Assembly: GCA_951406725.2 (NCBI GenBank)
Contig: OX597818.1
Coordinates: 119,350,001-119,414,000 of the forward strand
DNA: 64,000 bases
Direction: 5' to 3'
Source of the DNA: Octopus vulgaris
Lineage: Eukaryota
Below are positions 1-64,000 of the stretch, piece after piece. Made by a program: the position numbers and the translations under genes. Position 1 is the stretch's first letter; each line of letters starts with the position of its first letter. The notes below the pieces were generated by a model. It saw only the letters and a list, made by a program, of their open reading frames with translations. It made no database searches and was not told the origin of the DNA.

Positions 1-212
1 AAGTTAACATTAATAATGCACAGTGACTTGTTTGGGGAACAAACGAATGGGAAAAGTAGTAGATTTTTTTTTATTCGGGTGAAACATTTATGAAAGAGGA
101 GTAAGAGTGAATTAAGCAAGGAAATGAACGATATCTGTTTTCTAACCCGTGTGTAGCTTTGAGTACTTGGTGTAGCATATATGTATGTCTGCTGGCGTAT
201 ATATTCATATAT

Positions 213-578
213 AACCACATGGTTCCGGGTTCAGTCCCACTGCGTGGCACCTTGGGCAAGTGTCTTCTGCTATAGCCCCGGGTCGACCAATGCCTTGTGA
301 GTGGATTTGGTAGACGGAAATTGAAAGAAGCCTGTCGTATATATGTATATATATATATATGTATGTATGTATGTGTTTGTGTGTGTGTGTTTGTCTCCCT
401 AGCATTGCTTGACAACAGATGCTGGTGTGTTTACATCCCTGTCACTTAGCGGTTCGGCAAAAGAGACCGATAGAATAAGTACTGGGCTTACAAAGAATAA
501 GTCCCGGGGTCGATTTCCTCGACTAAAGGCGGTGCTCCAGCATGGCCGCAGTCAAATGACTAAAACAAGTAAAAGAGT
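213..578 (+). mobile_element. tRNA-derived SINE family A (5'-truncated)
   Basis: B-box GGTTCAGTCCC, body shared with about 10 copies in the window, internal TA/TG microsatellite, TAAAAGAG tail. Confidence 0.85.
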
Positions 579-612
579 ATATATATATATATATATATAC
601 GTGTGCGTGTAC

Positions 613-773
613 GCGCAGGAGTGGCCGTGTTGTAAGTAACTTTCTTACCAACCACAGCATTCCGGGTTCCGGCTCTCTATATGGCACCTTGGGCAAGTGT
701 CTTCCACTATACCCTCAGGCCAACCAAAGACTTGTGATGGGATGTGGTTGACGGAAACTGAAAGAAGCCTGTC

Positions 774-847
<74 letters not shown>

Positions 848-1081
848 AATATATGTGTGTGCGTATGTTTGTGTGTCTGTGTTTTTCCCAACCACCACCA
901 TCGCTTGAAGACCGATGCTGGTGTGATTGCATCACCATAACTTAGCTGTTCGGCAAAAGAGACCGATACAATAATCATTAGGCATACAAAGAATAAGTTC
1001 TGGGTTCGATTTGTTCGTCTAAAGGCGGTGCTCCTGCATCGCCGCAGTCAAATGACTGAAACAAATAAAAGATTAAAAGAG
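613..1081 (+). mobile_element. SINE family A
   Basis: Head GCGCAGGAGTGGC, same body and tail. Confidence 0.85.
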
Positions 1082-1797
1082 CAAAATATATACTTTTATA
1101 TGAATGTATTTTTTATACATGTACTTACATACATACAAATATATATATATATATATATATATACGTATATAAATATATATATACGCACACACACACAAAG
1201 AGAAAGAGAAAGAAATATATTGGTCTTTCTCTCCCCATCTCCCCATTTATCTTTCTCATTTTCTCTCGCCATATCTATCTATATATATGTGTATATATAT
1301 ATGTGTGTGTTTGTGTGTTTGTGTGTGTGTGTGCGTGTGTGTGTGCTCGCGCGCTTGCTATCCGAACTGCAATATGGCAAACCTTTGCAATCAGTAACAA
1401 TCAAGTAGAATTGACGTTAAACATATTGCAAATATATTTTGGAGATTCCTTTCTTGAATGTCTCTACTTCTCTAGAAAAGAAAAATATTGTTTGTATTAT
1501 ATATTTCCCGTGGAATGACACAAATCATATCATGAGAGCATCGGAGAGTGAAATGGCATATATTGTCAATGTACAAATGATGTTATTATTGATACAAGTT
1601 GTACATTAAGGAAAAAAATGATTCATTATTTCGCTTCAAATTTTTCAACAATTGGCAATTTTGAGCGTATAGAAAATTATGTGCGGTGTAATATCATAAT
1701 TTCTCCAATATTCATATGGGTTGCACATACATGGATTCATAGATACTTATGAAAATTAATGTTCTTTTTCTTTATAGGATGCTTCGAATGTCGTACT

Positions 1798-1986: not shown

Positions 1987-2367
1987 AGTGAGAGAGAGAG
2001 AGAGAAATAGGGGTTAAATTTTGTACTTTTTACGCCTATTGGGTTCACGAAACCGATATATTTATTTAAAGAGTTGAAAACTATACAATATTTGTTCCTG
2101 TTATGCAAATTTAGAATGAATATTTTAGTGGAAAGGAAGCGATAAGTGTGCGTAAATGGCTACAGCCTTAGGGGTAAAACATATAAAGAATTAAAAGAAT
2201 AAAAGAACATTTACAATTTTTATATACCATCTATTTGAAAAAACTCATAACATATTTACTCTTTTTATTTTACTACTTTTGAATCTACGTTTCAATGGGG
2301 AATTAAGTAAAGACCGATTTGAAAACCTTAAATTGAGATTTATAACGGTGGTTAATTCTTTTATATT

Positions 2368-2757
2368 TTAGGCACTAGGCCCAAAGTGTTTTTTTTGGAG
2401 AGGGGGCCAACTGATTAGCTCGACCCAAGTACGCAACTGGCACTTAAATTATCTACCCTCCGAAAGGACGAAAGGCGAAGTCGACCTGTGCTGAATTTGA
2501 ACTCAGAACGTAAAGGCAGATGAAATACCTATTTCTTTATTACCCACAAGGAGCTAAACAGAGAGGGGACAAACAAGGACAGACATAGGGTTTAAGTCGA
2601 TTACATCGACCCCAGTGCGTAACTGGTACTTAATTTATCGACCCCGAAAGGATGAAAGGCAAAGTCGACCTCGGCGGAATTTGAACTCACAACGTAACGC
2701 AGACGAAATACCGCTAAGCATTTCGCCCGGCGTGCTAACGTTTCTGCCAGCTCGCCG
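2368..2757 (-). mobile_element. tRNA-derived SINE family B (Meta/MESC-like core, internally duplicated)
   Basis: GGCGAGCTGGCAGAA head, GAGTTCAAATTCC B-box, core GTCGACTTTGCCTTTCATCCTTTCGGGGTCGATAAATTAAGTACCAG present twice. Confidence 0.85.
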
Positions 2758-2872
2758 GCAGATGAAAATACCGTTAAGGTTACTGCCGGCTCGACACCCT
2801 ATAATGCTAGCTAATTGAAAAACACATGATAAAATTTAGTTTGTTTTAATACATCAATATAAAACTAAATGA

Positions 2873-3236
2873 AAGTCGGCGAGCTGGTAGAAACGTTAGC
2901 ATGCCAGGTGAGTTCAAATTCCGCTGAGGTCGACTTTGCCTTCCATCCTTTCGGGGTCGATTAAATAAGTACCAGTTACGCACTGGGGTCGATATAATCG
3001 ACTTGATCCCTTTGTCTGTCCTTGTTTGTCCTCTGTGTGTTTAGCCCCTTGTGGGTAGTAAAGAAATAGGTATTTCGTCTGTCTTTACGTTCTGAGTTCA
3101 AATTCCGCCGAGGTCGATTTTGCCTTTAATCCTTTCGGAGGTCGATAAATTAAGTGCCATTTACGTATTGGAGTCAATCTAATCGACTGGCCTCCTCTTC
3201 CAAAGTTTCGTGCCTTGTACCTAGAGTAGAAAAGAA
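2873..3236 (+). mobile_element. SINE family B
   Basis: Inverted partner of 2368-2757. Confidence 0.85.
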
Positions 3237-3578
3237 TATAAAACTAAATGAGATATGATGAGAACGTTTCCTTAATAAAAATTATAAAGATAAAGTGCAG
3301 TGATATATTATCAAGATGAAAGTGAAGTCTTAAGAAAGTTTAGTCAACGGAATTTTCAATTCCTTTCAAGTTTATCCTTATTAAATACTTTTCTTTCTTC
3401 TTTTAATATAAACATTAAAATGGCAACCGAAAAACGTGTCGAATTTTAATAAACCGACAGTAAGCTTGTGCAGTTGGTTATTGCACGTTGCTTTATTTAT
3501 TACATTATTTCGCTGCGACTCACTTTACAAAAAAACGTCAGCTTAGCATCGATTGAAAGTTTTACGTTTTTTAAAGAA

Positions 3579-6147: not shown

Positions 6148-6435
6148 TACATCTGAAATTTTGCAGTAAATTGTTCTAATCAAAGTGTAGTTAATTGTAA
6201 CACAATAAATTGACCATTAACACAGGCACCATGTCACGAAACACTGGCGATGGTTAATACAATTGAAATACAAATAAGTTACGGTGGATTTGTACGCCAA
6301 TCGCGAAGAAAAAGAAGTACTGCAAGCAATTTGTTCCAACACTCTAGCGATTTGGCCAGTCCACTATCTTATTGTTGTTGTTGTTGTTCTTGTTATTGTT
6401 GCTGTAATTGGTGCATTGAGAACTCTGAGCAAATA

Positions 6436-7002
6436 TTGGGTTGTCCGGAAAGTTCGTGCCGATTTATAGTATCTTACTTTCCGACTTATTTTTAGAACAT
6501 GGTTGAGTCCATAAAATAGGATTTGACTACACCTCCATTTAGAGCACAGTTTAAGCTATCGCTTCGTGGAAGAATATTTATGTTCCTATAACCTGTTCTA
6601 ATTATGTAACCCTTTAAAATGGAAGATAAGTAAGTTCATTTTCGGCAATTGATGCTACGGGAACCAGACAAAAATTGCTGCAGCTCGGCTGGGATGTGTT
6701 ACCCCACCCTCCATTTTCACCAGATATTGCCCCTTCGGATTTCCACTTATTCAGGTGTCTGCAGAATAGTCTTCATGGTAAAAAATTCAATTCCTTGGAT
6801 GACGTAAAAAGATACCTTGATTAATTCTTTGCCATGAAAACACCTCAAATCTAGGAAGAGGGTATTTTCAAGTTAAAGGAAAGATGGAGATGCATTGTGC
6901 AACAAAATGGTTCATATTCGGTTGATTAAAAATGTAATGGCAAATATTTATTGACCTATTTCTTTCTTTTAAAAATCGGCGCGAACTTTCCGGACAACCC
7001 AA
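6436..7002 (+). mobile_element. Internally deleted non-autonomous mariner (DD34D) element
   Basis: About 30-bp TIRs TTGGGTTGTCCGGAAAGTTCG(T/C)GCCGATTT, TA duplications at 6434-6435 and 7003-7004; transposase N-terminus fused to C-terminus LGWDVLPHPPFSPDIAPSDFHLFR...KERWRCIVQQNG with stops. Confidence 0.93.
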
Positions 7003-7960
7003 TATATAGAGAAATGGTTTAAAGTGATTGGAACAGAGTATTCTGTTGAGCTTCTACAGAATATTCGTCTCTCAGGGACAGGAAAATTATCCGGAGAGTT
7101 CTAAGTACTTGATAATCTATTGAAATTTAATGGATACAAAAGGTTACGGGTAGTAGCCCGCTTCCCATATGAATCCAACCAGGAATATGACCGAACCTGA
7201 GTCAAGTCAACAAAAATAACGTTTATATTGTTCTCATTGCGATGGTAAATAACTTAGTTGCTATTGCAATATATGTGGACTTCAACGATTTGAATGATAA
7301 CACAGATGCTATCAAAATATGCGCTACGAATGATCATAGTGTTCGCATTGTTCAAGCTAACATTATCAATGCGATTATATATTTTTTTCAAGAGGAAATG
7401 TTCGTGTTCACATTTCTACGTTTGATCAATTATCACAGGGTCCTTATATTTTTTTATCTTTGTTAAAATGTTGCAAGCTGCTTTCTTTTCTTTGTCCTTT
7501 TTTACGTTTTGTCTCCTCTTTCGTCATTGAGAATTCTCACACTAATATGACAGATACCTTTGATGATTACTATTGACGCCATATTGAAAACGCAGAAAAA
7601 AATGAAAAATGGCCGCTGAATCAGGAAAACATACAGTTAAAACAATGTAAAAGCGAAACTGTCTCCATTCCAGCCTGGACCTGGGTGATGGCATAATCAA
7701 CTGAAGCTAAAACGTTTCTGTTAGTATTGCACGACAAATGGAAAGCCAAAGAGAAACTACTTTTTCATCAAATTTTCAAAATCAAAACCATTTTCAATGG
7801 GAATGCGCTATTAAAACGTGTCCACTTGAATAGTTATTCGATGATGATGATAATGATGATGATGATGTTGATGATGATGATGGTGGTGGTGGTAGTGGTG
7901 GTGTGGTGGTGGTGGTGGTGGTGGTGGTGGTGGTGATGATGATGATGATGATGATAGTGA

Positions 7961-8174
7961 TCCTTCTACAAGGTCAAAAATTTGGAGAGAGGGAGCGAGT
8001 CGATTAGGTCGACTCCAGTACGCAACTGGTACTTAATTTATCGATCCTGAAAGGACGAAAGGCAAAGTTGACCTCGGCGGAATTTGAACTCAGAACGTAA
8101 AGACAGACGAAATATTGCTAAGCATTTCGCCCGGCGTGCTAACGTTTAAGCCAGTTCACTGCCTTAAATAATAC

Positions 8175-8239
<65 letters not shown>

Positions 8240-8438
8240 GTTTTGGTACAACATCAGCAATTTTGGGGGAGTGGCTAAGTCGATTAATTCGACCCCAGTA
8301 CGCAACTGGTACTTATTTTATCGACCCCGAAATGATGAAAGTCAAAGTCGACCGAAATTTGAACTCAGAACGTAAAGATGGACGAAATGCTGCGAATCAT
8401 TTTGCCAGGCATTTTAACGATTCTGGCTGCACTCTGCC
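7961..8438 (-). mobile_element. Two tandem SINE family B copies separated by (TAA)n
   Basis: Homology to family B. Confidence 0.8.
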
Positions 8439-9010: not shown

Positions 9011-9374
9011 CACGTGGTAAGTAGCTTGCTTACTAGCCACATGGATCTGGGTTCAGTCCCACTGCGTTGCACCTTCCGCGAGTGTCTTCTACTGTAGCTT
9101 CGGGCCGACCAAATCCTTGTGAGTGGATTTGGTAGACGGAAACTGAAAGAAGCCCGTCGTATATATGTATATAATTATGTGTATATACGTGTATATGTTT
9201 GTGTCTCCCAACATCACTTAACAACTGATGCTGGTGTGTTTACGTCCCCGTAACTTAGCGGTTCGGCAAAAGAGACCGATAGAATAAGTACTAGGCTTCC
9301 AAAGAATAAGTTTTGAGTTCTATTTGCTCGACTAAAGGAGCACTGCCTTTAGTCGAGTAAAAAGAGTAAAAGAG

Positions 9375-9440: not shown

Positions 9441-9532
9441 TCAAGTCATTTAGAATATTTAATTAGATTAAGGTGAATTTGAAGTAATTAATTAATTCTA
9501 CCTTACTCTAATTAAATATTCTATATGATTGA
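9441..9532. repeat. About 39-bp imperfect inverted repeat at the end of a TA-flanked insertion (9435-9720)
   Basis: tagaatatttaattaga / tctaattaaatattcta core. Confidence 0.8.
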
Positions 9533-10850: not shown

Positions 10851-11085
10851 TTATTTCTTTACTGCCCACAATGGTCTAGACATAGAGGGGACAAACAAGG
10901 ACAGACAAACGGATTAAATCGATTATATCGGCCCCAGTGCGTAACTGGTACTTAATTTATTAATCCCAAAAGGACGAAAGGCAAAGTCGACCTTGGCATA
11001 ATTTGAACCCAGAACGTAACGGCTGACGAAATGCCGCTAAGCATTTCGCCCGGCGTGCTAAGGTTTCTGCCAGCTCGCCACCTTT
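10851..11085 (-). mobile_element. SINE family B
   Basis: Homology to family B. Confidence 0.85.
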
Positions 11086-13915: not shown

Positions 13916-14395
13916 GCTGATGATGCAGATGTGGAAGAAGCTTCCTACTGAGTGAAATTGCCTCCACAGCGTAACTGCTACTTACCTTACCATCAATGGA
14001 ATATAACCCTCGTAAAAGATAACCTAAGGAGGGATATTTAATAGGGTGTTCCGATCTGCTAGAAATAGCAAACAAGTCTCACTGAAATCACAAAGTCTCG
14101 ACTTTAAGAAATGGGAAGTATGTTTTTGTTAATGTAGCATCTGTTATATAAAATCTATGCTGGTTACAACTAAAACGCTTTTGATCGTAGCTTGATGTGT
14201 GACCTGAGGCTAAAGGAGAAGGAAAACAATTTTACATCAATATAGTATATATTTACGTATGTGTTGGCAGAGGTTGTGTGTGTGTTTGAGTGTGTATGTG
14301 CGTGCGTGCGTGTTCTCTATGTTATTGTATGTTAGATAATTTATCTAGAGGCAACGCCAAAGGCTTTATCTAATTATTTAGCTATGTAAATATTG

Positions 14396-14880
14396 TCTTC
14401 AGATTTTGGCACATAGCCAGCAACTTCAAGAGAAGGAGCAAATGGATTTCATGGACACCAGAGTTCAACTGGTTCTTATTTTATCGATCCCGAAAGAATG
14501 AACGGCTAGGTGTCCCTCGGCGGAATTTGTACGCTGAACGTGAAGATGGACGAAATGAAGCAAAGCATTTTGCCCGCTATTTTAACAATCTCGCCAGCTC
14601 CCTGTCCTAAGATACGTAAATACTATGGTATTCGAAACACAATCAAAATATTTAGCAAATATATATTCTTTTGTATCCTAGGCACAAGGCCCGACATTTT
14701 GGGGGAAGGGGCCAGTGGATTGGATCGATCTCAATACGCAACTGGTATTTAATCTATCGACCCCGAAAGGATGAAAGGCAAAGTCGACTCCCGTGGAATT
14801 TAAACACAGAACATAAAGACAGACGAAATACAACTAAGCATTTCACCCGGCGAAATAAAGATTCAGGCCCAGCGATCACC
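14396..14880 (-). mobile_element. Two diverged SINE family B copies
   Basis: Homology to family B. Confidence 0.7.
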
Positions 14881-15142
14881 CGACATTCTATAAATAGCAG
14901 ATAAACTTCCCTCAAATCGAATTCTATTCCCTCAATAAATAAAAGTTATGTATTTCACAGTGCAGTCTTACATATTACTAAACTAAGAACTAAAAAGGCA
15001 TGATGGTCGCTGTTTGGATGACTTGAGTAAGAGGTCGTCTCGACCATAAACAGCAACGTAGTCAAATAACATATGATCATTTTTAACCCGGGTATGTTTT
15101 GTTCATTAGCTTGTAATAGTTTCTTCTTTGCCTTTTGATTTA

Positions 15143-15295
15143 ATATAGTTTCTTCTAATTCCATGTAATTCGAGATACAGAGAGCAATAAAAAGGAAAGA
15201 AAGAAACGAGAAAAAAACAGTTGTTTCGTTAACTGTTCTTTTCTCGTTTCTTGCTGTCTGTATCTCGAATTACGTGGAATTAGAAGAAACTATGT
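15143..15295. mobile_element. Palindromic MITE-like element
   Basis: About 65 paired bases, 8-nt loop, one 15-nt purine bulge; TA on both flanks. Confidence 0.65.
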
Positions 15296-15547
15296 TACAT
15301 AGCACACGCACAAAATTGCTTTTTATTTGTTTATTGCTTGTGATGTATGGACCCAGGATTGCAGCAATGCGAAAGGTGAGGTTGCAAATGTTTTAGTTCG
15401 TTATGTAGAAGAGATTACGTAAACGGAGTTTGGGAGAATGATGAACATTATATAAACAATATTTAGCAGTAAAAGAAACAAAAATAAAAAGATACGATTG
15501 TATGCACTTTAGATAGATATTGTGATATAAAGATATTTTTGTTTTTT

Positions 15548-20408: not shown

Positions 20409-20415
20409 TCAACTA

Positions 20416-20590
20416 GGCGCAGGAGTGGCTGTGTGGTAAGTACCTTGTTTACCAACCACATGGTTCCGGGTTCAGTCCCACTGCGTGGCACCTTGGGCAA
20501 GTGTCTTCTAGTTGTTCGACTAAAGGCGGTGCTCCAGTATGGCCGCAGTCAAATGACTGAAACATGTAAAAGAGAGAGTAAAAGAGTAAA
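20416..20590 (+). mobile_element. SINE family A, internally deleted
   Basis: Head joined directly to tail. Confidence 0.8.
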
Positions 20591-20613
20591 GACTATATAT
20601 ATATACATACAAT

Positions 20614-20665
<52 letters not shown>

Positions 20666-20979
20666 TCAACGATATGTATGTATATGTATATATTTGTATC
20701 TGTATATCCAACCGTTTCACACAGTGACGTAGCGATTTTCTTTGAACATTATCTTGTACGTATTCCCCTGTACGGAATACTCAGCCATGTCTCACACTGT
20801 TTTAGTTTGTAGGCTGTTAATTTATTGGTTAATCGTTTATGCCATAGCATTTCAAGACTGATCGGGAATATGGCATTTATGTGTGATTGTTCTATGTCTT
20901 TATCGCAACAATCGTTAAGAGCATCAATGGCGACCAAATCCCAGCTATCAAAATTATCAGCAAAACAGTTTGCAGATCT

Positions 20980-21208
20980 CTTTACTCTTTTACTCTTTTA
21001 CTTATTTCAGCCGTTTGACTGTGGCCATGCTGGAGCACCGCCTTTAGTCGAGCAAATCGACCCCAGGACTTATATTTTGTAAACCTAGTACTTATTCTAT
21101 CGGACTGTTTGCCGAACCGCTATGTTACGGGGCCGTAAACACACACGCACCGGTTGTCAAGCCATTGTGGGGGACAAACACAGACACACAAATCCACACA
21201 CACACACA

Positions 21209-21263
<55 letters not shown>

Positions 21264-21402
21264 GTACGACCTGCTTCTTTTCAGTTTCCCTCTACCAAAA
21301 CCACTCACAAGGCTTTGGTCTGCCCGAGGCTATAGTAGAAGGCACTTGCCCAAAGTGCCACGCAGTGGGTTTGAACCCGGAACTATGTGGTTGGTAAGGA
21401 AG
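20980..21402 (-). mobile_element. SINE family A
   Basis: Reverse-complement homology. Confidence 0.85.
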
Positions 21403-22774
21403 CAATTTACCTTCAATTTTATAGACTAGTATACTTATGACTAAAGAAATTACGAGTTCGTGTTGTTCAAATAAAAAAAAATGATCGAGTTCCGTAGTAC
21501 ACCTATTCCTAGTTTAAAAGATGGCCAGGTATAACTGGCAGACAAAAGAAGACGATAAAAATGACAGCGTTAAGGAAGGTGGTAAACATCTTTTGAGCTA
21601 GAAATCCAATACAATGGATACTCTGTCGTTCCATTGTTCGAAACACAACAGATAAAAAAATATTGGGTGTCAAAAGATGAAAAATTTATACGAAATTATA
21701 GGAGACGGCTCCGAAGGCGGAAGAAGTTTTAAAACTAAGATTATTATCATAATCCATCCGAGAACGTATAAATACAAACACATAATGAAGAACATTAACC
21801 TCAATACAGAGGACAACTTTAATGTTGACATACATGCCGTTCTATTTACACTGTTTTCATTTCCACGTTCTTCAATTTCTGCGACTTTATTTGAATAAGA
21901 GAACATTATTACACGTTGCTCATTGTTTATAAACATGACTGAAGCTTCTGACACCATATATGGGTTCAGGGGACTCGAGTGCAGTCTGGCAGTGCCTGAT
22001 AACATTTATTTTGTAAATCGACTTGTATTTCTGTACTAGTTAATTTATCTGTTCCATTCCGCTATTATACTCTTGATTTTCCAGACGCTGTGGTGCCTTT
22101 CTTAATAATATTATATCACGGAGGTATTTAAAGAGCAAGGCTCTCTCTATGCTCCACCTATCATTTTTTTCTAGGGATATCATGTTGGTTCTGATATTAT
22201 TTCCTCTTCCCATGGACCAAGCACTTACCTGCTAAAACCTTACACGTGAATTATATTTTAAAAGTCTTCTTCATAATTTCTGACAATGTACCCAAACCTG
22301 TGAAGCCAGATCCCCACATGGGTGTTTCAATGTTGGAATACATTACGAATGACTTGTCATTTTCCACAAGCAACTCTAGTTGAATTTATGAAGCGATATC
22401 GGATGTGCTAGCTGTAAAAAATTTCTTTGACATACTCAGTTGTTGGCAGAACTACAGTTTTAATTTCTTTGAGTTTGACTCTTTCATGTGAAAGCATTAT
22501 GGTAATGTCCACTGGAATGATCGATGCTTTTACAAGTCTACAATTAATTACACAGATCATGTGAACGATTCTTCAAAGAATATTCTTAACGTCTTTGCAT
22601 ACTATTGCATCCGATTTCTGATTCCCAACCTTCATTGAAATCGAGTCTATAAAAAATAGTATGCAACTATTTTGTTAGGTTCAGCATGTGTGATAACTTT
22701 GTGTTATAATTTTGTACCATTGTATGAGAATTCAAATATTTAATACAAAGTTATACGACCATATGTAGGTTCGT

Positions 22775-25703: not shown

Positions 25704-25793
25704 ATAAACGATTACTATAAAGTATAACATCTTCATAAACCAAGTCTTTCAACTTGGTTTATGAAGATGTTATACTTTATAGTAATCGTTTAT
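25704..25793. repeat. Perfect 42-bp inverted repeat, 6-nt loop
   Basis: 25704-25745 is the exact reverse complement of 25752-25793. Confidence 0.95.
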
Positions 25794-30773: not shown

Positions 30774-30856
30774 AAATTTTCGTTGCGTCTTGCAAACTTT
30801 TCAATAATTTTGACTCTCAAAACTATTGAAAAGGTTGCAAGACGCAACGAAAATTT
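30774..30856. repeat. 40-bp inverted repeat, 3-nt loop, 2 mismatches
   Basis: 30774-30813 versus 30817-30856. Confidence 0.95.
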
Positions 30857-32682: not shown

Positions 32683-32918
32683 TATTGTTATATAAGAATG
32701 CTTTAGTATATTTCTTAATTGTTTATTTATTATGAGTAAATATCTCTGTCAGTTTAAATGAAAACACATCTTGGCTCACCGATTCTTTGAAACTTTACGA
32801 TACTTGTTTTCAGAATAAACAGGGAATGTGAGCTTAGTTTTTTCCTCATCACTGATGAATGCTGCGGTGCATGAACTATTAGGCCTTATGTTAGGAGAAT
32901 TTTAACAGACACTAAATA

Positions 32919-33219
32919 TCCTTTTCTACTCTAGGCACAAAGCCCGATCTTTTGGGGGAGGGAAGGCAGTCGATTAGATCGACCCCAGTATGCAACTGGT
33001 ACTTAATTTATCGACCCCGAAAGGATGAAAGGCAAAATCGACCACGGCGGAATTTGAACTCAGAACGTAGCGGCAGACAAAATACCTATTTCTTTACTAC
33101 CCACAAGGGGCTAAACAGAGGGGACAAACAAGGACAGACAAACGGATTAAGTCGATTACGTCGACCCCAGTGCGTAACTGGTACTTATTTAATCGACCCC
33201 GAAAGGATGAAAGGCAAAG
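32919..33219 (-). mobile_element. SINE family B, 5'-truncated at an (AGT)n array
   Basis: Homology to family B. Confidence 0.85.
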
Positions 33220-33220
33220 C

Positions 33221-33291
<71 letters not shown>

Positions 33292-33787
33292 CAGCAGTAG
33301 TAGTAGTAGTAGTATATAGTGAGTGAGAAAGCGTTAGTTTTAGCGAGGAATAGTAACCAAGCAGTGCTCAGAGGGATCGAACTCTCAAACTTCAGCTTCT
33401 TAATCAAGTTGAGGTCTCCCTGATGGCTAGAAGAACGACCAAAATCTAGCATATTTCAAACAGGAGCGTCAGGAATGATTGATATGGAAACATATATTTT
33501 ACAAAGTGTAAAAAAGTCCTATCTTTAGAGTTGGTTCAAATTTTTTAACAAATGGTTGGTATAAGCAAGGCATAATATATCGACAGCTGTAATATTGGGG
33601 TGATATTTCGATTAAACATAAAACAAATATAGTATCTAAAAACGGGAATACTGATATGCGATTATCTTCGTGCGGCGATATAGCGACATAATTTTCTGAA
33701 GCCTTAAAGGCAAATGCACCTAGCGACGCAACGTTTACAAAAATATTGACGTCCATAAATTAAGGAGAGAGGTAGTAGTAAAGTTAT

Positions 33788-34029
33788 ATTCTTTTACTCT
33801 TCCCTCTTTTACTTGTTTCAGTCATTTGACTGCGGCCATGCTGGAGCACCTCCTTTAATCGAGCAAATCGATCCCAGGTCTTATTCTTTGTAAGCCTAGT
33901 ACTTATTCTATCGGACTCTTTGCCGAACCGCAAAGTTACGGGGACGTAAACACACCACCATCGGAGTGTCAAGCGATGTTGGGCGGGTGACAAATACAGA
34001 CACACAAACATATACACATACATACATAC

Positions 34030-34060
<31 letters not shown>

Positions 34061-34235
34061 CATACATACATACGACGGGTTTCTTTCAGTTTCCGTCTGC
34101 CAAATCCACTCACAAGGTTTTGGTCGACCCGAGGCTATAGTAGAAGACACTTGCCCAAGGTGCTACACAGTGGGAATGGACCCGGAACCATATGGTTGGT
34201 ATGCAAGCTATTTACCACACAGCCACTCCTGCGCC
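33788..34235 (-). mobile_element. SINE family A, full length
   Basis: Head to tail present. Confidence 0.88.
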
Positions 34236-34730
34236 TACATAGTTGAAGATGCAGAAATAGAGAGAGGATATGGACGAGAAAATGTGAAAACAAATGTATG
34301 TTGATAATGAGGAGAGAAGTGTTGCTTTAGAAGCGAGTAGGCAGTATGTGGAGGAATAAAACTGTATTTCTATAGCTCTGCCTGCATTACTTTCAAATAT
34401 GATACTATATGGCTTGACTTCATTGTAAAACATATTGTTACTGTAGGAACATCTCACTTTCTCCCTTCCATGTATCGTACATCGGTATGACCATGTGTTA
34501 AAAATCTACTTTTTCTAATCATCCTTTCTTTAAATACTTCAATACATCTATCGCCATTTTACACTGAAGCACCGTAGGAAAATTTGGAGAGACACTTTTC
34601 ACAAACAACTACTTATTTTACAACAATCCTAAATACTCTCTCATGAGATTTTCAAGATACCTGCCGTTCTACTTTCTTATCTATAATAAGTTTCCTCCAG
34701 TCCTTTATGATGAATCATTATTATTATTAA

Positions 34731-36084: not shown

Positions 36085-36139
36085 ATTATTATACAATTAA
36101 AAGTTGTTAGCTAATTTATGTAGCTATTCTAACTACCTG

Positions 36140-36345
36140 TGTCCAGGCAGTCGCCATGATTGACCGCTAACCCCAAAAGATTTTTTTATTCTGTCTCTGT
36201 TTATTTCCACGTGTTCCTTTCTGCTGAAGAGCAATAGGCTCGAAACGTAAAAGATTTTTACACCTTCCAGGTCGTTAAACTAATACACCTGTTTGTTGTT
36301 TAAACACTGTCTTCGTCGTTTGTTTTTCTGTAAATTTCAACTATA
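36140..36345 (+). mobile_element. Hammerhead-bearing short element
   Basis: Homologous over >150 bp to the reverse complement of 37227-37440. Confidence 0.55.
36217..36253 (+). ncRNA. Variant-core minimal hammerhead (CUGCUGA)
   Basis: cuuu CUGCUGA a gagc-aauag-gcuc GAAAC GU A aaag. Confidence 0.55.
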
Positions 36346-36924
36346 AATAAATAGCATTTATACTTCTAAGTTCTAAGTGTAAATACAGTGAGATATTAGA
36401 AAGATATACAACCTACCTTTGATTTTCTGGCGTATTCTAAAATGCAATGGAGTGCAATTATGAAATGCAATGATTTCATCTTTAGATTGATGCCAACGTA
36501 TCTGATACTTAAACTCTCTTTGGAGTATTCTACGCTGTGAAGTAATGTTTTCAAGCGAGGAAAACATTATTATCTATTACAAAGAAGCTTATCCAGATGC
36601 CATAGTTGAGTAATTAAGAAAATGTAATTTACAGCATCCTCTTGAAAATAACAACCAATTATTGATTGTATAAAGCGAGAAAGTCTGTTTTGACAACGTT
36701 ACACGCTCAGCGAGTAATGTATTTTAATGGCTACTTCACATCTACTTGAATATTGAATAAATGCACAAACGCAGTTTTTCGAACGCAAGCACAGAAAACA
36801 CGCATGTACACATTGGCATGAATTCACGTTTATATTTACTGACGTTTTCACCATTACAAAAAGTTGCTGGCTGACAAAGGCAGATACAGATTCTCGACTA
36901 AACTCATACGTGCGTGCACACATA

Positions 36925-36992
<68 letters not shown>

Positions 36993-37226
36993 TATCTGCA
37001 TATATATATATATATATATATATATGCATATATATATATCTACATATATATATATATATATATATACATATATGTATATGTATATGTACATATATGCATA
37101 TTATATATATATATACACACATCTATATATCCCCATACACATGTCTAAATATAAGTATATATCTATATATGAGTGTATGCATACATATTCAAACATACAT
37201 GAATATATACATATATACATTATATA

Positions 37227-37480
37227 TAGGGAGAATTCACAAAAAAACAAAAGACGAAGACAGGTGGTGTAGACAACAAACAGATATATTAGTTTAACTC
37301 TCGGGAAGTGAAAATGTCTTTAACGTTTCGAGCCTATGCTCTTCCACAGAAAGTAACACAGAAAGAAACAAGAAGAGAAAATATAGACTGTGTTGTGGCT
37401 AGCGACCTATCATGCGGAATACCGGATAGAGGGGTCACACAGGAGATAATAATGTAGTGGTGATCCGAAAACTAAGGTGC
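37227..37480 (-). mobile_element. Hammerhead-bearing short element, inverted relative to the 36140 copy
   Basis: Homology to 36140-36345; flanked by TA/TACA repeats. Confidence 0.55.
37318..37353 (-). ncRNA. Variant-core minimal hammerhead (CUGUGGA), same family as 36217
   Basis: Minus strand: cuuu CUGUGGA a gagc-auag-gcuc GAAAC GU U aaag. Confidence 0.5.
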
Positions 37481-39520: not shown

Positions 39521-40021
39521 CACGTATATATACATATACATGCATATATGTCGTGAGTAAATCAGAAAAAGAAACACACCTGTTTCTGAGTGTATGCGTG
39601 TGTGAGTGAACAAGAGTTAGTACACAATGCTGGAAGCAGAGACCTACATATTATATTTTATTCAGAAGTGTTTACTTCGTGTTATACTTTTCCCAGTCGT
39701 AGCAGGATTAGTGACAAAGGAAACATAACATAAGATACTTAAAATTACATACAATCGTGATAACTGTATATCTAGGGGAGTTTTGACTAAGCTGAAATGA
39801 AACACGATGTTTAAGACAGAAAGTATATTCCCTGAGCATATGCATGTGGTGCGTAATTTAAATGAAAACATTAGAGAATGGAATAAGGCGAGGAAAATAG
39901 AGACAAAAGAAACGTGGTGTTCGGAGAAAAAAAAACACAAGCAAAAATCCACACCCAAACACACATACACTTCTGCGCCTACACACTCACACACACGCAC
40001 ATATGTGTGTGTGAATGTGTA

Positions 40022-40176
40022 GGCGCAAGAGTGGCTGCGTGGTAAGTAACGTTTACAAGCTACAAGGCTCTGGGTTCAGTCCCACGGCGTGGCACCTTGG
40101 TCAACTGTCTTCTACTGTATTCTCGGGCCGACCAAAGCCTTGTGAGTGAATTTGGTGGACGGAAACTGAAAGAAGC

Positions 40177-40214
<38 letters not shown>

Positions 40215-40400
40215 GTGTCTGTTTTTGTCCCTCTCCCCAACTATCTCTTGAAAATCGATGTTGGTGAGTTTACATCCTCGTAACTTAACGGTTCGACATA
40301 AGAGACCTGTAGTGTAAGCACTAGGTTTACAAAGAATAAGACCCAGGGTGCTTCAGCATCACCGCAGTCAAATAACTGTAACAAATAAAAGAATAAAAGA
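40022..40400 (+). mobile_element. SINE family A
   Basis: Head to tail present. Confidence 0.85.
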
Positions 40401-43894: not shown

Positions 43895-43948
<54 letters not shown>

Positions 43949-44053
43949 ATTTAGGAATGGTCATGTTGACAGTTTAGCCAATAAAAACACACGCACTATA
44001 TATTTGGTGTGAATTTGCTTATTTATTTTTTACATTAATCTTAATCTTATTTC

Positions 44054-44098
44054 GGCCAGAGTCGTTTCGTCACACTTCTGTGACCTCATCAGTGGTCC
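44054..44098 (-). ncRNA. Hammerhead motif with intact core but broken stem III
   Basis: Minus strand: ggacca CUGAUGA g gucaca-gaag-ugugac GAAAC gac UC uggcc. 6-bp stem II; C-C mismatch in stem III. Confidence 0.6.
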
Positions 44099-44168
44099 TT
44101 TGCGTTCTTCTTTCTTATATATACACATATAATACATATACATATACACACACACACACATATACATA

Positions 44169-48402: not shown

Positions 48403-48804
48403 AACTTAGATCCTTTTTTTAAAGTTTTGCAGTTGTTTGTCAATCTTCACACAATGACCTTCTTACTCCCCGACTGAAGATCCTTTTGTTCAAGTGACAT
48501 ACAGACTCTACAATATGCATCCCCACCAAATCTAAATGACAATAGTTATTTGGTTATAATAAGCTGACAGAATCATTAGGGTATAGAAAAATGAGCTTTG
48601 CAGCTTTTAGTCCAGCAAGAAGTGTCACAGTTTTGCAGTGAAAGGTTGAGATTTGAACCCATAATTCACAGAGTTTATGCAAGGCATCCTAAAATGCGCA
48701 GGGCTGGTTCAGATGGTGCAATCAACTGCTCTGGAATGTTATGTGTTTTTATTTAAAAGGATAAAAATCATAAAAAGGATAAAAAGGATAAAATATATAT
48801 ACGC

Positions 48805-48909
<105 letters not shown>

Positions 48910-48974
48910 TATATATACATATATATATATGTATGTATGTATATACATATATAAATATATATATGTATATATAT

Positions 48975-49350
48975 AATAATAAATATTAGGAATAAATCCA
49001 AATTTACAGGGAAAAATGAGATTTAGGATTGAATCCAATTTTATAGTAAAATATAATATAATATTAATTAGAGACAAAACCACTATTATGCAAATCAAAC
49101 AAAGAAAGACTTTACCCAATACATAAAAAATTTTATATAAATTAAATAAAATTAAGTTATCCACTACAATTGTTTCCTGTCACTTCTAAGGACATTCATC
49201 AGGTGGTTTCAAGACCTTCTATTCAATTTTAAATTGAATAGAAGTGGATAACTTATTTTTATTTAATTTATATAAAAAAATTTATGTATTGGATCAAGTC
49301 TTTCTTTGTTTGATTTGCATAATAGTGGTTTTGTCTCTAATTAATATTAT
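48975..49350. mobile_element. Penelope-like pseudo-LTR / retrozyme-like insertion with 108-bp inverted arms in (TA)n
   Basis: Arms 49058-49165 and 49243-49350 are inverted near-identical copies; hammerhead at the inner end; flanked by TA microsatellite. Confidence 0.65.
49161..49206 (-). ncRNA. Minimal type I hammerhead ribozyme
   Basis: Minus strand: ccac CUGAUGA a uguc-cuuagaagu-gaca g GAAA C-aauu-GU A gugg. Stem I ccac/gugg, stem II uguc/gaca, palindromic stem III, GUA triplet. Confidence 0.8.
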
Positions 49351-49359
49351 ATGTATATA

Positions 49360-49439
<80 letters not shown>

Positions 49440-49461
49440 ATTATACATATATACATATATA

Positions 49462-51364: not shown

Positions 51365-51425
51365 ATATTTTAATGCAGTTTGGCGGAATCTGTTTTACAG
51401 ATTCCGCTAAACTGAATTGAAATAT
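51365..51425. repeat. About 29-bp hairpin
   Basis: cagtttggcggaatctgt-ttt-acagattccgctaaactg core with paired flanks. Confidence 0.9.
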
Positions 51426-52055: not shown

Positions 52056-52241
52056 ATTTACATTATTTACATTTGACGAATATTTGTCCCCGTCTTGTTT
52101 GTTGTTAACACAACGTTTCGGCTGATATACACTCCAGCCTTCATCAGGTGTCTTGGGGAAATTTCGAACCTGGGTTCTCATTCCTAAGGTATTTTTCCAT
52201 GTTATTATTATTGTTATTATTATTACTACTACTACTACTAC

Positions 52242-52348: not shown

Positions 52349-52482
52349 CGCCATATAACCGTGGGCAATTATGTAGTGAATTTTTAGGGCATATAAATCT
52401 AATATTTTCCTGAAGGCTGGAGTGTATATCAGCCGAAACGTTGTGTTAACAACAAACAAGTTGAAGACAAATATCCGTCAAA
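52056..52482. mobile_element. Hammerhead-bearing short element (minus, 52056-52200) plus inverted partial copy (52411-52482); third fragment at 52997-53048
   Basis: Visible inverted homology between 52072-52143 and 52411-52482, separated by (TTA)n/(GTA)n. Confidence 0.65.
52107..52152 (-). ncRNA. Minimal type I hammerhead ribozyme
   Basis: Minus strand: gacac CUGAUGA a ggcug-gaguguauau-cagcc GAAAC GU U guguu. Loopless palindromic ACGU stem III, GUU triplet. Confidence 0.75.
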
Positions 52483-52928: not shown

Positions 52929-54450
52929 TTGTTATAAGACCAGCAGTTCTAGGACGTTGGGTAAGTCAAGCACATCGACCCCAGTTCTTTAATGGTACTC
53001 CAGCCTTCATCAGGTGCCTTGGGGAAATTTCGTACCTGGGTTCTCATTACGCCGTTATTTGGACTCAGAACAACACCATCAATATTGCTGCTGAGAGATT
53101 CTGCCGGCCGATTCTTGCAGCTGAATCGAAATGAAATTCTTAACCACACCGCACTCATAAGATTACATTTGCAAGTGTTATCAATTATAATTAATTAATG
53201 CTTCTTAATTATTTTCTTCTGTAAGACGGCTCTAATTGCCTTTATAAGATTTCAGTTGAATCAAATCACGTTCTTATAAACACGATAAAGAAACAGCAAT
53301 TGTTTTTAACTCTTATTCATTCGGGAAACATTCTGAAATAAAATGAAACACCTGTTGTATGCATATGTCCTTGGGTTTCCTTCTCTTTAATAAGCTTTAT
53401 CGATTAAGTGTTTGCTGTTTTTAATATGGAAGAGATTTTTGCCAGACAGTAATGGAGCCCCCATGTTGTCTTCTGATCTGTTGGAAATATCGACCAAATC
53501 TTCAAACTGATGAAATAGGAAGGATATTAAAACAATGTGGTCCTTGCTGTGTAATCCTTGTATTTAAATTAGAATATCCACGACTGGGACGCCCTTTGAT
53601 CACAAATACACCCGATTACATTAGATTCTGGCTGAACAACAATAAAAGAATGAGAGAGTATTTATATGAATATCTAACTTAAATTACTTTTACAGTTGAA
53701 AGTAAGCCCGAGAGTGCGCCTGATTTCTGTCGAGTTAGCACTCAGCATTTACACGTCAGTGTTATAACTGAAAACTTCCAGGCATGGCGGAGGATATGCG
53801 TACATATATAATAGTGGCAATGAATATTCCGATCGTAAAGTTGTATACGAGATTGAGTCAAAAGATATTTCAAGCTTTAATATAGTTCAAAGATATCACA
53901 AATAAATAGATAGGTAGATACATACACACACACGCATATTATGTACGTACTTAGGGTAAATTCCTTCCAATAGGAAATTTCTCACATGGCTAACTAACAT
54001 GTAAAAGTTCGTAATTCCTATTAGCAAATGAAACAAAACAAGCGTAATGGTGAATACAAAATAGCAAAATAATGTCCATTCTTCCTGTTTTGTAATTAAC
54101 ATTTCGAAACCTCATGTATACAAGAATTATCTACTTTCGGGGGTAAAATTACTATAAGTTACCATTAACATCCGAACCTACTTCGAGATATTTATTATCA
54201 CAACACCATTTCTAAACATAAATGTAAAAGTAAAAATGGGTTCTAGAGAAGAATATCTGGACTCCATTAAAGTTAAAAATCATTGTCACCTACGAGACAT
54301 TTTAATTTGTTCTGCATTGATTTTGTAATAACTCAGGATATAAAAATGTGTGAGCTTTCATTTATTTATTTATTTTTTATCTTTCTCAACATTAAATTGC
54401 AAGTAATATGGCGTTGAAACAAGTTACATTTCAATAAATAAACATTCATA

Positions 54451-62822: not shown

Positions 62823-63029
62823 TTACTCTTTTAATTGTTTCAGTTATTTGACTGTGGCCATACTGAAGCAACGCCTTTAAGTCAAGTAAATCGACCTCAG
62901 GACTTATTCTTTGTAAGCCTAGTACTTATTCTATCTGTCTCTTTTGCCGAACAGCTAAGTTACGGGGACGTACACCAGCATCGGTTGTCAAGTGATGTTT
63001 CGAGGACAAGCACAGACGCACAAACATTT

Positions 63030-63107
<78 letters not shown>

Positions 63108-63246
63108 GACGGGCTTCTTTCAGTTTCTGTCTACGAAATCCACTCACAAGGCTTTGGTCGGCCCGAGGCTATAGTAGAAGACACTTGCCCAAAGTGCCAC
63201 GCAGTGGGACTGAACCCGGAACTTACCACACAGCCACTCCTACGCC
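62823..63246 (-). mobile_element. SINE family A
   Basis: Reverse-complement homology. Confidence 0.85.
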
Positions 63247-63395
63247 TTCCTGAATGTGAGGACGGGTTCCAGTTTTAAAGCTTTTTTTTATTTTCCTTAA
63301 CGTTTACTTACGATTTGGAGTATCTTCCTCTCTTTCTGAAGCTCTTTGCAGTTTAATACAAGTGTTTATTATATATTTCTTCTCTACCCTGTTAA

Positions 63396-63780
63396 GGTGT
63401 AGGAGTGGCTGTGTGGCAAGTAGCCTGTTTACGAACCACATGGTTCTGGGTTCAGTCCCACTGCATGGCACCTTAGGCAAGTGTCCTCTATTATAGCCTC
63501 GGGACAACAAGAGCCTTGTGAGAGGATTTGGTAGACGGAAACTGAAAGAAACCCGTCGTATGTGTGCGTGTGTGTTTGTGCGTTTGTGTGTCTGCGTCTG
63601 TCCCCGCACCATCACTTGACAACTGACGCCGGTGTGTTTACGTCCCTGTAACATTAGCAGTTCGGCAAAATGATATTGATAGAATAAGTACTAGGCTTAC
63701 AAAGAATAGTCCTCGTTCGACTAAAGACGATGCTCCAGCATGGCCAAAGTCAAATAACTAAAAAGAAGTAAAAGAGTAAA
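63396..63780 (+). mobile_element. SINE family A (a further tail fragment at 63899-64000)
   Basis: Head to tail present. Confidence 0.85.
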
Positions 63781-64000
63781 GGGTTTATTCGATAGCGATG
63801 TTTACTTATTGTGGATGAAGAATGAAACCATTAGCCATCGACATCTGGCACAGACTGACATCCTAGAAGTAACAGATTATAGCTTCTTAAGTTTTGACAA
63901 AAGAGACCGATAGAATAAGTACTAGGCTTACAAAGAATAATCCTAGGGGGCGATTTGCTCGACTAAATGCGGTTCTCCAGCATGGCAGCAGTCAAATAAT

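What the first reader, a model, noticed from the sequence alone, without database searches (positions are those of the whole stretch)
49058..49350. Inverted copy starts at the predicted hammerhead cleavage site
Seen: the hammerhead at 49206-49161 (minus) would cut after GUA, between 49165 and 49164. The second, inverted 108-bp arm starts at 49243/49244 with (a)gtggataac, i.e. the first bases of the predicted 3' cleavage product, and lacks all the upstream ribozyme. A small hairpin (49216-49244) sits at the junction. Inference: a DNA fossil of reverse transcription running to the ribozyme-generated RNA 5' end, which would be indirect in vivo evidence of cleavage. Inverted pseudo-LTR arrangements are known for Penelope-like elements.
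Basis: partly seen in the sequence, partly recalled or inferred. Interest (0 to 1): 0.75.

Follow-up and report, generated by a model that had tools for sequence, protein, structure and literature searches.

The report
Penelope fragment with fold-back junction
This is a short, head-to-head double copy of a common hammerhead-bearing repeat, likely a Penelope-like jumping gene; one copy ends within one base of the ribozyme's predicted cut site, but related copies show no pile-up of ends there, so it is likely coincidence and does not show cutting in living cells.

Summary
A minimal type I hammerhead lies at 49206-49161 (minus; predicted cut 49165/49164), an inverted arm at 49244-49352 matches the predicted 3' product at 103 of 109 bases, and a perfect 14-bp hairpin spans 49216-49244. 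The hairpin's left arm is family sequence, so its right arm is a fold-back copy of arm 1's own 5' end at 49230. It overlaps arm 2 by 2 bases (AG), so the breakpoint has three possible positions, only one being the cut site. Contigs of four runs show a high-copy family with two 3' ends (80-nt tail or none), (TA)n flanks and a compensatory change in helix III. Summed depth shows no step at the cut site (bin ratios 0.73, 0.81, 1.09, 0.99), multi-copy contigs bridge it, and the one other inversion joint listed (49105/49230) is elsewhere. Best reading: an ordinary Penelope-like insertion, possibly Hydra clade, two cDNAs joined by snap-back and microhomology. Run-off at a cleaved RNA end remains possible for this copy (about 25%). 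Inverted truncated copies, tails and junction palindromes are all published.

The parts
48793..48975 (.). Left flank: (TA)n/(TATG)n microsatellite, presumed target; no target-site duplication can be read
   Evidence: sequence
48976..49055 (-). About 80-nt 3' extension ('tail') present on arm 1 only
   Evidence: absent from arm 2; family contigs cover it, and others leave the element at 49056 into (TA)n in all 4 runs: 51, 37, 28, 14 contigs
49056..49164 (-). Arm 1, part downstream of the predicted cut (predicted 3' cleavage product, 109 nt)
   Evidence: high-copy family
49161..49206 (-). Minimal type I hammerhead; palindromic helix III at 49166-49173; predicted cut 49165/49164
   Evidence: descriptor against shuffles and dimer fold; paired changes at 49168 and 49171 keep the palindrome
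49207..49230 (-). Arm 1 upstream of the ribozyme, to its 5' end at about 49230
   Evidence: family depth 11,478 in X1 at 49218-26 against 33-42 for this single locus; a second insertion in X3 also joins at 49230
49231..49244 (+). 14-nt inverted copy of 49229-49216 (right arm of the junction hairpin); its last 2 bases overlap arm 2
   Evidence: X1 depth 41.7 at 49236-43
49244..49352 (+). Arm 2: inverted, tail-less, 5'-truncated copy; first base ambiguous between 49243 and 49245
   Evidence: 103 of 109 identical to arm 1
49353..49460 (.). Right flank: (TA)n microsatellite
   Evidence: sequence

Best explanation
This is a head-to-head pair of truncated copies of a high-copy hammerhead-bearing repeat, likely one Penelope-like insertion into a (TA)n tract in which two cDNAs were likely joined by a short fold-back and a 2-base overlap, the stop beside the predicted cut site likely being incidental. 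Shown: the two arms, the tail on one, the second family 3' end at 49056, the 14-nt inverted copy of arm 1's end, the AG overlap. Inferred steps: (1) the element's protein nicks both strands of (TA)n and primes one cDNA at the outer start site (tailed arm 1) and one at the inner site (tail-less arm 2), as shown in vitro for the anole Poseidon element; (2) cDNA 1 copies an uncut RNA through the ribozyme to about 49230; (3) its 3' end folds back on the T/A run and copies 14 bases of itself; (4) the new end pairs by 2 bases with cDNA 2, which had stalled or was trimmed at 49163-49165, the foot of the predicted 8-bp intermolecular helix III.
For: Anatomy and overlap. Family 3' end at 49056 into (TA)n in 4 of 4 runs; left hairpin arm at about 350 times single-locus depth in X1 and about 110 times in X3. 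No depth step at the cut: ratio 49164-72 / 49155-63 = 0.73, 0.81, 1.09, 0.99 (geometric mean 0.89), whereas the eight steps from 49083 to 49155 are 0.43-0.78; depth inside the ribozyme (49191-99) is 0.78, 0.91, 2.16, 1.66 times that just below the cut. 5 of the 32 listed pieces bridge the cut with 31 or more letters on both sides, at depths 271, 227, 17.5, 723, 242. The other inversion joint (X3) is 49105/49230. Only 6 AG dinucleotides lie in 49214-49056, one at the cut. Literature: both strands nicked and extended, two RT start sites bounding the tail, ribozyme mutants insert normally in vitro, no RNA-seq reads ending at the site (PMC11167929); palindromes at inverted junctions, a 15-bp overlap and a shorter inverted pLTR (PMC3846280); snap-back joining (PMC5728401 passages; PMC11724301 abstract).
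Against: The breakpoint window does contain the cut site, a 2-3% event under a uniform model, and 1 of the 2 inversion joints listed is at the site. In X1 depth falls 32% from 49160 to 49168 (96.7k to 65.8k), and the bin ratios are 0.73 in X1 and 0.81 in X3, which leaves room for a minority of ends there (X1 keeps falling to 25k at 49175 and recovers to 88k, so it is not a clean step). Summed contig depth is not copy number, and part of the gradient comes from diverged subfamilies. The junction hairpin's primer is weak: 49216-49233 folds at 0 kcal/mol as DNA. No RT gene is linked to this copy.
Confidence: 0.45

Rival explanations
1. Cleavage fossil: same two-cDNA insertion, but cDNA 2 ran off the 5' end of a ribozyme-cut RNA while cDNA 1 copied an uncut RNA; two RNAs held in a protein dimer would form the dimeric hammerhead.
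For: Breakpoint window includes the cut. The motif is under selection to pair as a dimer: the co-fold of two copies forms the 8-bp intermolecular helix III with stems I and II (-21.0 against -6.9 kcal/mol for one copy), and 49168 and 49171 change together, with equal depth in all 4 runs, keeping the palindrome (probably one inherited event). The anole ribozyme cuts only when protein is added, and the protein is predicted to be a dimer (PMC11167929). R2 5' junctions follow their ribozyme's cut site (PMC3774820 abstract).
Against: No family-wide step at the site in 4 runs, multi-copy contigs bridge it, no loose end at 49164/49165 among the 24 shown (190 not shown), other joint elsewhere. With the longer 81-nt context the predicted minimum-energy folds, monomer and dimer, are not the hammerhead. 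A stall at helix III would leave the same mark without cleavage. PMC11167929 found cleavage dispensable in vitro.
Confidence: 0.25
2. One cDNA: arm 1's cDNA folded back at 49230 and copied itself to make arm 2, slipping over 52 bases (49215-49164) between two AG dinucleotides; or the 52 bases were deleted later from an unstable long palindrome.
For: The right side reads exactly as arm 1 from 49229 minus 52 bases bounded by AG/AG. Self-priming is the published reading of junction palindromes, and microhomology deletions are common in Penelope copies (PMC3846280). Both arms carry the same letters at the family-variable sites 49088, 49156, 49159, 49160.
Against: Arm 2 ends at 49056, the family's second 3' end, as expected of a separately primed cDNA. 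No stable DNA fold brings 49164 and 49216 together (-2.8 kcal/mol, other pairs).
Confidence: 0.25
3. The missing 52 bases are a spliced intron (they start GT and end AG), so arm 2 derives from a spliced RNA lacking the ribozyme.
For: GT...AG ends; Penelope pLTRs carry introns, one ending at helix I in D. virilis (PMC4209133).
Against: Poor donor (GTCTTG) and no pyrimidine tract (sequence); the X4 variant upstream of 49206 lacks the GT (3 contigs); no 49163/49216 skip is listed in any run (the short 14-nt side makes this weak).
Confidence: 0.03
4. Assembly or library fold-back artefact.
For: Head-to-head repeat between microsatellites, a setting where assemblies fail.
Against: The arms differ at 6 of 109 bases; an X1 contig holds the junction at depth 33.
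Confidence: 0.02

Closest known systems
Canonical EN+ Penelope-like insertion: inverted 5'-truncated copy, optional tail, junction palindrome (Adineta Pen2a_Av, PMC3846280; overview in PMC8557442)
   Same: Head-to-head copies, one shorter; palindrome at the junction (14 bp here; 15-bp overlap in Pen2a_Av); tail on one arm; minimal hammerhead near the 3' end.
   Different: No ORF in this copy; tail about 80 nt against the published 30-40 bp; no readable target-site duplication; the short arm ends within 1 base of the predicted cut.
Hydra-clade PLEs (PMC8557442, File S1/S2)
   Same: (TA)n target (26 of 27 listed families); hammerhead with a short AC...GT helix III (26 of 26 rows) and an unpaired base on both sides of stem II (15 of 26 rows); one family is described from Octopus bimaculoides.
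   Different: The mismatch here is A.G (A.A in a variant), not U.U; helix III has no loop base; the motif differs from Hydra-1_oBim; two 11-12-nt words of this element were not found in the supplement; RT and EN cannot be tested. Neptune and Naiad also target (TA)n.
R2 retrotransposon HDV-like ribozyme (PMC3774820, abstract)
   Same: The precedent for a ribozyme cut setting the 5' junction of genomic copies.
   Different: In R2 the cut defines the element's 5' end; here the ribozyme lies 109-189 nt from the 3' end and family depth shows no step at the cut.
Snap-back SD-MMEJ / local fold-back inversions (PMC5728401 passages; PMC11724301 abstract)
   Same: A short inverted copy of one end (5-34 bp in yeast; 14 here) followed by a microhomology join.
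   Different: Described at double-strand breaks; here inferred for two retroelement cDNA ends; the enzyme is unknown.
Non-LTR retrozymes (10.64898/2026.07.22.740005, part 1 of 5)
   Same: Short, non-coding, type I hammerhead, related to pLTRs.
   Different: Defined by head-to-tail tandem units each with a ribozyme; this locus is head-to-head with one ribozyme.

Membership tests
Minimal type I hammerhead of PLEs | Core boxes CUGANGA, GAAA, NUH with stems I and II | tested here: met
   2 loci in the window against a shuffle mean of 0.01; no Rfam hit
Minimal type I hammerhead of PLEs | Palindromic helix III allowing a dimer | tested here: met
   8-nt palindrome pairs between copies in the co-fold; one compensatory pair in 4 of 4 runs; not the minimum-energy fold with longer flanks
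Minimal type I hammerhead of PLEs | G10.1-C11.1 pair closing stem II (PMC4209133) | tested here: not met
   A.G mismatch here; mismatches at this place are common in Hydra-clade motifs (15 of 26 rows)
Minimal type I hammerhead of PLEs | Self-cleavage at the predicted site | not testable with these tools
   needs an in vitro or RNA-end assay
EN+ Penelope-like elements | Inverted 5'-truncated copy at the 5' end | tested here: met
   a second head-to-head joint in X3
EN+ Penelope-like elements | Optional 3' tail on one copy | tested here: met
   two 3' ends, about 48976 and 49056; 80 nt, longer than the published 30-40 bp
EN+ Penelope-like elements | Telomerase-like RT with GIY-YIG endonuclease in a full-length copy | not testable with these tools
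   no genome held; 36 of 140 window frames scanned gave no Pfam family at its curated cut-off and no RT or GIY-YIG match
EN+ Penelope-like elements | Target-site duplication | tested here: inconclusive
   both flanks are (TA)n
Hydra clade | (TA)n insertion | tested here: met
   flanks; loose ends into (TA)n in 4 of 4 runs; shared with Neptune and Naiad
Hydra clade | RT/EN phylogeny | not testable with these tools
   no linked ORF
Non-LTR retrozyme | Two or more head-to-tail units, each with a hammerhead | tested here: not met
   single ribozyme, head-to-head; no 'goes back' joint listed
Ribozyme-defined 5' ends (R2-like) | 5' junctions of the family cluster at the cut site | tested here: not met
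   no depth step, bridging contigs, 1 of 2 joints elsewhere; coarse test, minor excess not excluded

The most novel reading that the evidence does not exclude
Penelope-like elements insert as a protein dimer carrying two RNAs whose minimal hammerheads complete each other, so that one RNA is sometimes cut and its cDNA runs off at the cut site while the partner stays whole; asymmetric inverted insertions like this one would then be a genomic record of cleavage in the germ line, visible as a modest excess of inverted-arm ends at the cut site across families.
Probability: 0.15. Interest if true: 0.7.

Novelty: new member of a known kind. Interest (0 to 1): 0.25.

Why it matters
What the hammerheads of Penelope-like elements do is open: PMC8557442 calls their function unclear, and PMC11167929 found cleavage dispensable in vitro and no RNA ends at the site. 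An excess of genomic 5' ends at the cut would be in vivo evidence, and a high-copy family like this one makes the test cheap. This single copy does not supply that evidence, and the coarse family test is flat. What remains is a clean example of the known inverted structure, with a readable fold-back junction, a long tail and a recurrent 5' end at 49230 (2 insertions).

Tried and rejected
Whole genome: none held, so no copy-by-copy histogram. Other copies in the window: none beyond the two arms. Collection scans for copies: metagenome contigs 3 hits and viral contigs 0 and 14 hits, all 17 loci matching only over 16-21 bases, so chance; genome contigs 0 in two scans. Rfam: no hammerhead model matches; the hits at E<=10 are simple-repeat noise. 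Sequencing runs: no RNA holder listed. Runs X3, X4 and X11 give no cover at 49236-49243 and table 6 lists no place where many molecules begin or end; neither is used as evidence. I laid 4 of the 24 listed runs, on one arm only (48975-49243). Pfam scan of 36 of 140 frames: 5 weak sub-threshold hits, none a retroelement. Supplements: text search of PMC11167929's files found none of four terms, so its Fig. S2 coverage plot was not seen; the FASTA of PMC3846280 could not be read, so I could not check where Pen2a_Av's short arm starts relative to its ribozyme. Earlier findings by sequence and by genome: nothing. Rejected: artefact, spliced intron, retrozyme, and reading the hairpin as a neutral spacer.

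Full report
What is there. The window is AT-rich, microsatellite-rich eukaryotic DNA. It looks octopus-like to me from recalled SINE sequences; that label comes from no call. Between two (TA)n tracts lies a 377-bp insert, 48976-49352. On the minus strand arm 1 runs from about 49230 through a minimal type I hammerhead (49206-49161, predicted cut 49165/49164), 109 further bases and an 80-base extension. On the plus strand arm 2 (49244-49352) repeats those 109 bases, 103 identical, without the extension. The motif is beyond chance: 2 loci in the window against 0.01 per shuffle, 0 of 200 shuffles reaching 2. Rfam does not recognise it.

The junction. The hairpin 49216-49244 has 14 perfect pairs and is the only one of its kind outside simple repeats in the window. 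Its register holds to 49244 while the arm register holds back to 49243, so two bases (AG) belong to both, and arm 2 may start at element position 49165, 49164 or 49163. Laying contigs of 4 of 24 listed runs on 48975-49243 shows that the hairpin's left arm is family sequence: depth 11,478 in X1 at 49218-26, about 350 times the depth of this locus's own joint, and about 110 times in X3, while X1 covers the right arm at 41.7. The right arm is therefore a local inverted copy of arm 1's 5' end, and the fold-back centre is 49230, 65 bases upstream of the cut. The right side can be read as a 14-base snap-back insert joined to an arm that ends at the cut +/-1, or as a copy from 49229 that lost 52 bases between two AG dinucleotides. 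One copy cannot separate these.

The family. 4624, 1805, 1062 and 393 contigs were laid in X1, X3, X4 and X11 (three organism codes), so this is a high-copy repeat. Contigs leave the element into (TA)n at 49056 in all four runs (51, 37, 28, 14 contigs), exactly where arm 2 ends, while others cover the extension: two 3' ends, the tail signature of Penelope-like elements, here about 80 nt. Changes at 49168 and 49171 occur with equal depth in each run and keep the helix III palindrome; two copies of the 50-nt motif co-fold through that 8-bp helix, though not with longer flanks. Three X4 contigs suggest a variant whose stem I extends to 6 bp.

Depth falls steeply from the peak at 49074-49091; 1-5% of it is left at 49155-63. 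Across the cut the bin ratios are 0.73, 0.81, 1.09 and 0.99 (geometric mean 0.89), flatter than all eight steps from 49083 to 49155 (0.43-0.78), and depth inside the ribozyme is 0.78-2.16 times that just below the cut. Five of 32 listed pieces bridge the cut by 31 letters or more, at depths 17.5 to 723. Two inversion joints are listed: this locus (X1, 49165/49242) and another insertion (X3, 49105/49230), which is away from the cut and shares the 49230 end. No loose end at 49164/49165 is among the 24 shown; 190 are not shown. Against my reading: X1 loses 32% of depth between 49160 and 49168 and X3's bin ratio is 0.81; summed contig depth is not copy number; diverged subfamilies shape the gradient; contigs drop rare forms. 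So a rule is unlikely and a small excess is not excluded. A uniformly placed three-position window would hit the cut 2-3% of the time, or 1 in 6 if an AG overlap was required; a scan of many windows will meet such cases. Among other hammerhead fragments in the window (36224, about 37300, 44092, 52147, 52411) none starts at its cut site; the sample is small and favours intact motifs.

How it likely arose. In vitro the anole Poseidon protein nicks and extends both strands, starts at two sites that bound the tail, inserts normally with a dead ribozyme, and no RNA-seq reads ended at the cut (PMC11167929, parts 1-2 of 4 read). That fits one tailed and one tail-less cDNA primed in (TA)n. Arm 1 needs an uncut template. 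Fold-back of its end and a 2-base join match snap-back end joining (PMC5728401, passages; PMC11724301, abstract). Why cDNA 2 ended at 49163-49165 is the open step: trimming to the overlap or a stall at helix III (0.45), run-off at a cut end (0.25), or no second cDNA at all but self-copying with a slip or later deletion (0.25). These odds are my judgement.

Comparison. Inverted truncated copies and 30-40-bp tails (PMC8557442, abstract, passages, supplement part 2 of 59), junction palindromes with a 15-bp overlap and a shorter inverted arm (PMC3846280, passages and Discussion) and opposite-strand pairs of minimal hammerheads (PMC4209133, parts 1-2 of 4) are published. The motif's layout and the (TA)n target resemble Hydra-clade elements, but no RT is linked, so membership is untested. 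It is not a tandem retrozyme (10.64898/2026.07.22.740005, part 1 of 5). Eight literature searches and the parts I read showed no report of PLE 5' ends clustering at the hammerhead cut; subscription papers and unseen supplements (Fig. S2 of PMC11167929, the FASTA of PMC3846280) may bear on this. An earlier AI report on another genome (e1-9850483) described the same coincidence and called the site only mildly favoured; I could not check it and do not count it as evidence.

Verdict. Real, correctly described, and ordinary in kind: a new member of a known structure. Interest 0.25; the bold reading has probability 0.15 and would deserve 0.7.

Noticed in passing
window 49230 and run X3 joint 49105/49230: Two independent insertions end at the same upstream position, which may be the natural 5' end of a short template RNA or a favoured fold-back site.
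   Followed up: partly
window 48976-49055: The tail is about 80 nt, roughly twice the published 30-40 bp, and is predicted to form a weak stem-loop.
   Followed up: partly
window 43940-44125 (-), 36090-36352 (+), 37220-37370 (-), 52072-52205 (-), 52411-52482 (+), 52997-53048: Fragments of three further hammerhead-like repeat families beside (TA)n or (TAA)n; 36198-36350/37220-37370 and 52072-52143/52411-52482 are opposite-strand pairs; none starts at its predicted cut site.
   Followed up: partly
window 9441-9532: Imperfect fold-back of two arms of about 40 nt next to (TA)n, with 17 of 19 bases like this element's inner 3' end (E 0.003); perhaps a very short inverted insertion of a related family.
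   Followed up: partly
window 6433-7005: Inverted 36-bp ends around a decayed frame that looks like a mariner transposase C-terminus (resemblance recalled, not scanned).
   Followed up: partly
window 15138-15300, 25704-25793, 30774-30856, 51365-51425: Long non-microsatellite hairpins (80-93% complementary), origin unknown.
   Followed up: no
window 212-1085, 2355-3240, 7967-8427, 9013-9340, 10852-11079, 14386-14868, 20414-21411, 32913-34239, 40017-40400, 62823-63999: At least two dispersed SINE-like families with many copies in the window; they resemble octopus SINEs as I recall them.
   Followed up: no
loose ends behind 49067 and 49110; joint 49026/49089 in X1: Signs of related subfamilies that share the 3' part but differ upstream, and one copy lacking 62 bases across the inner 3' end.
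   Followed up: no
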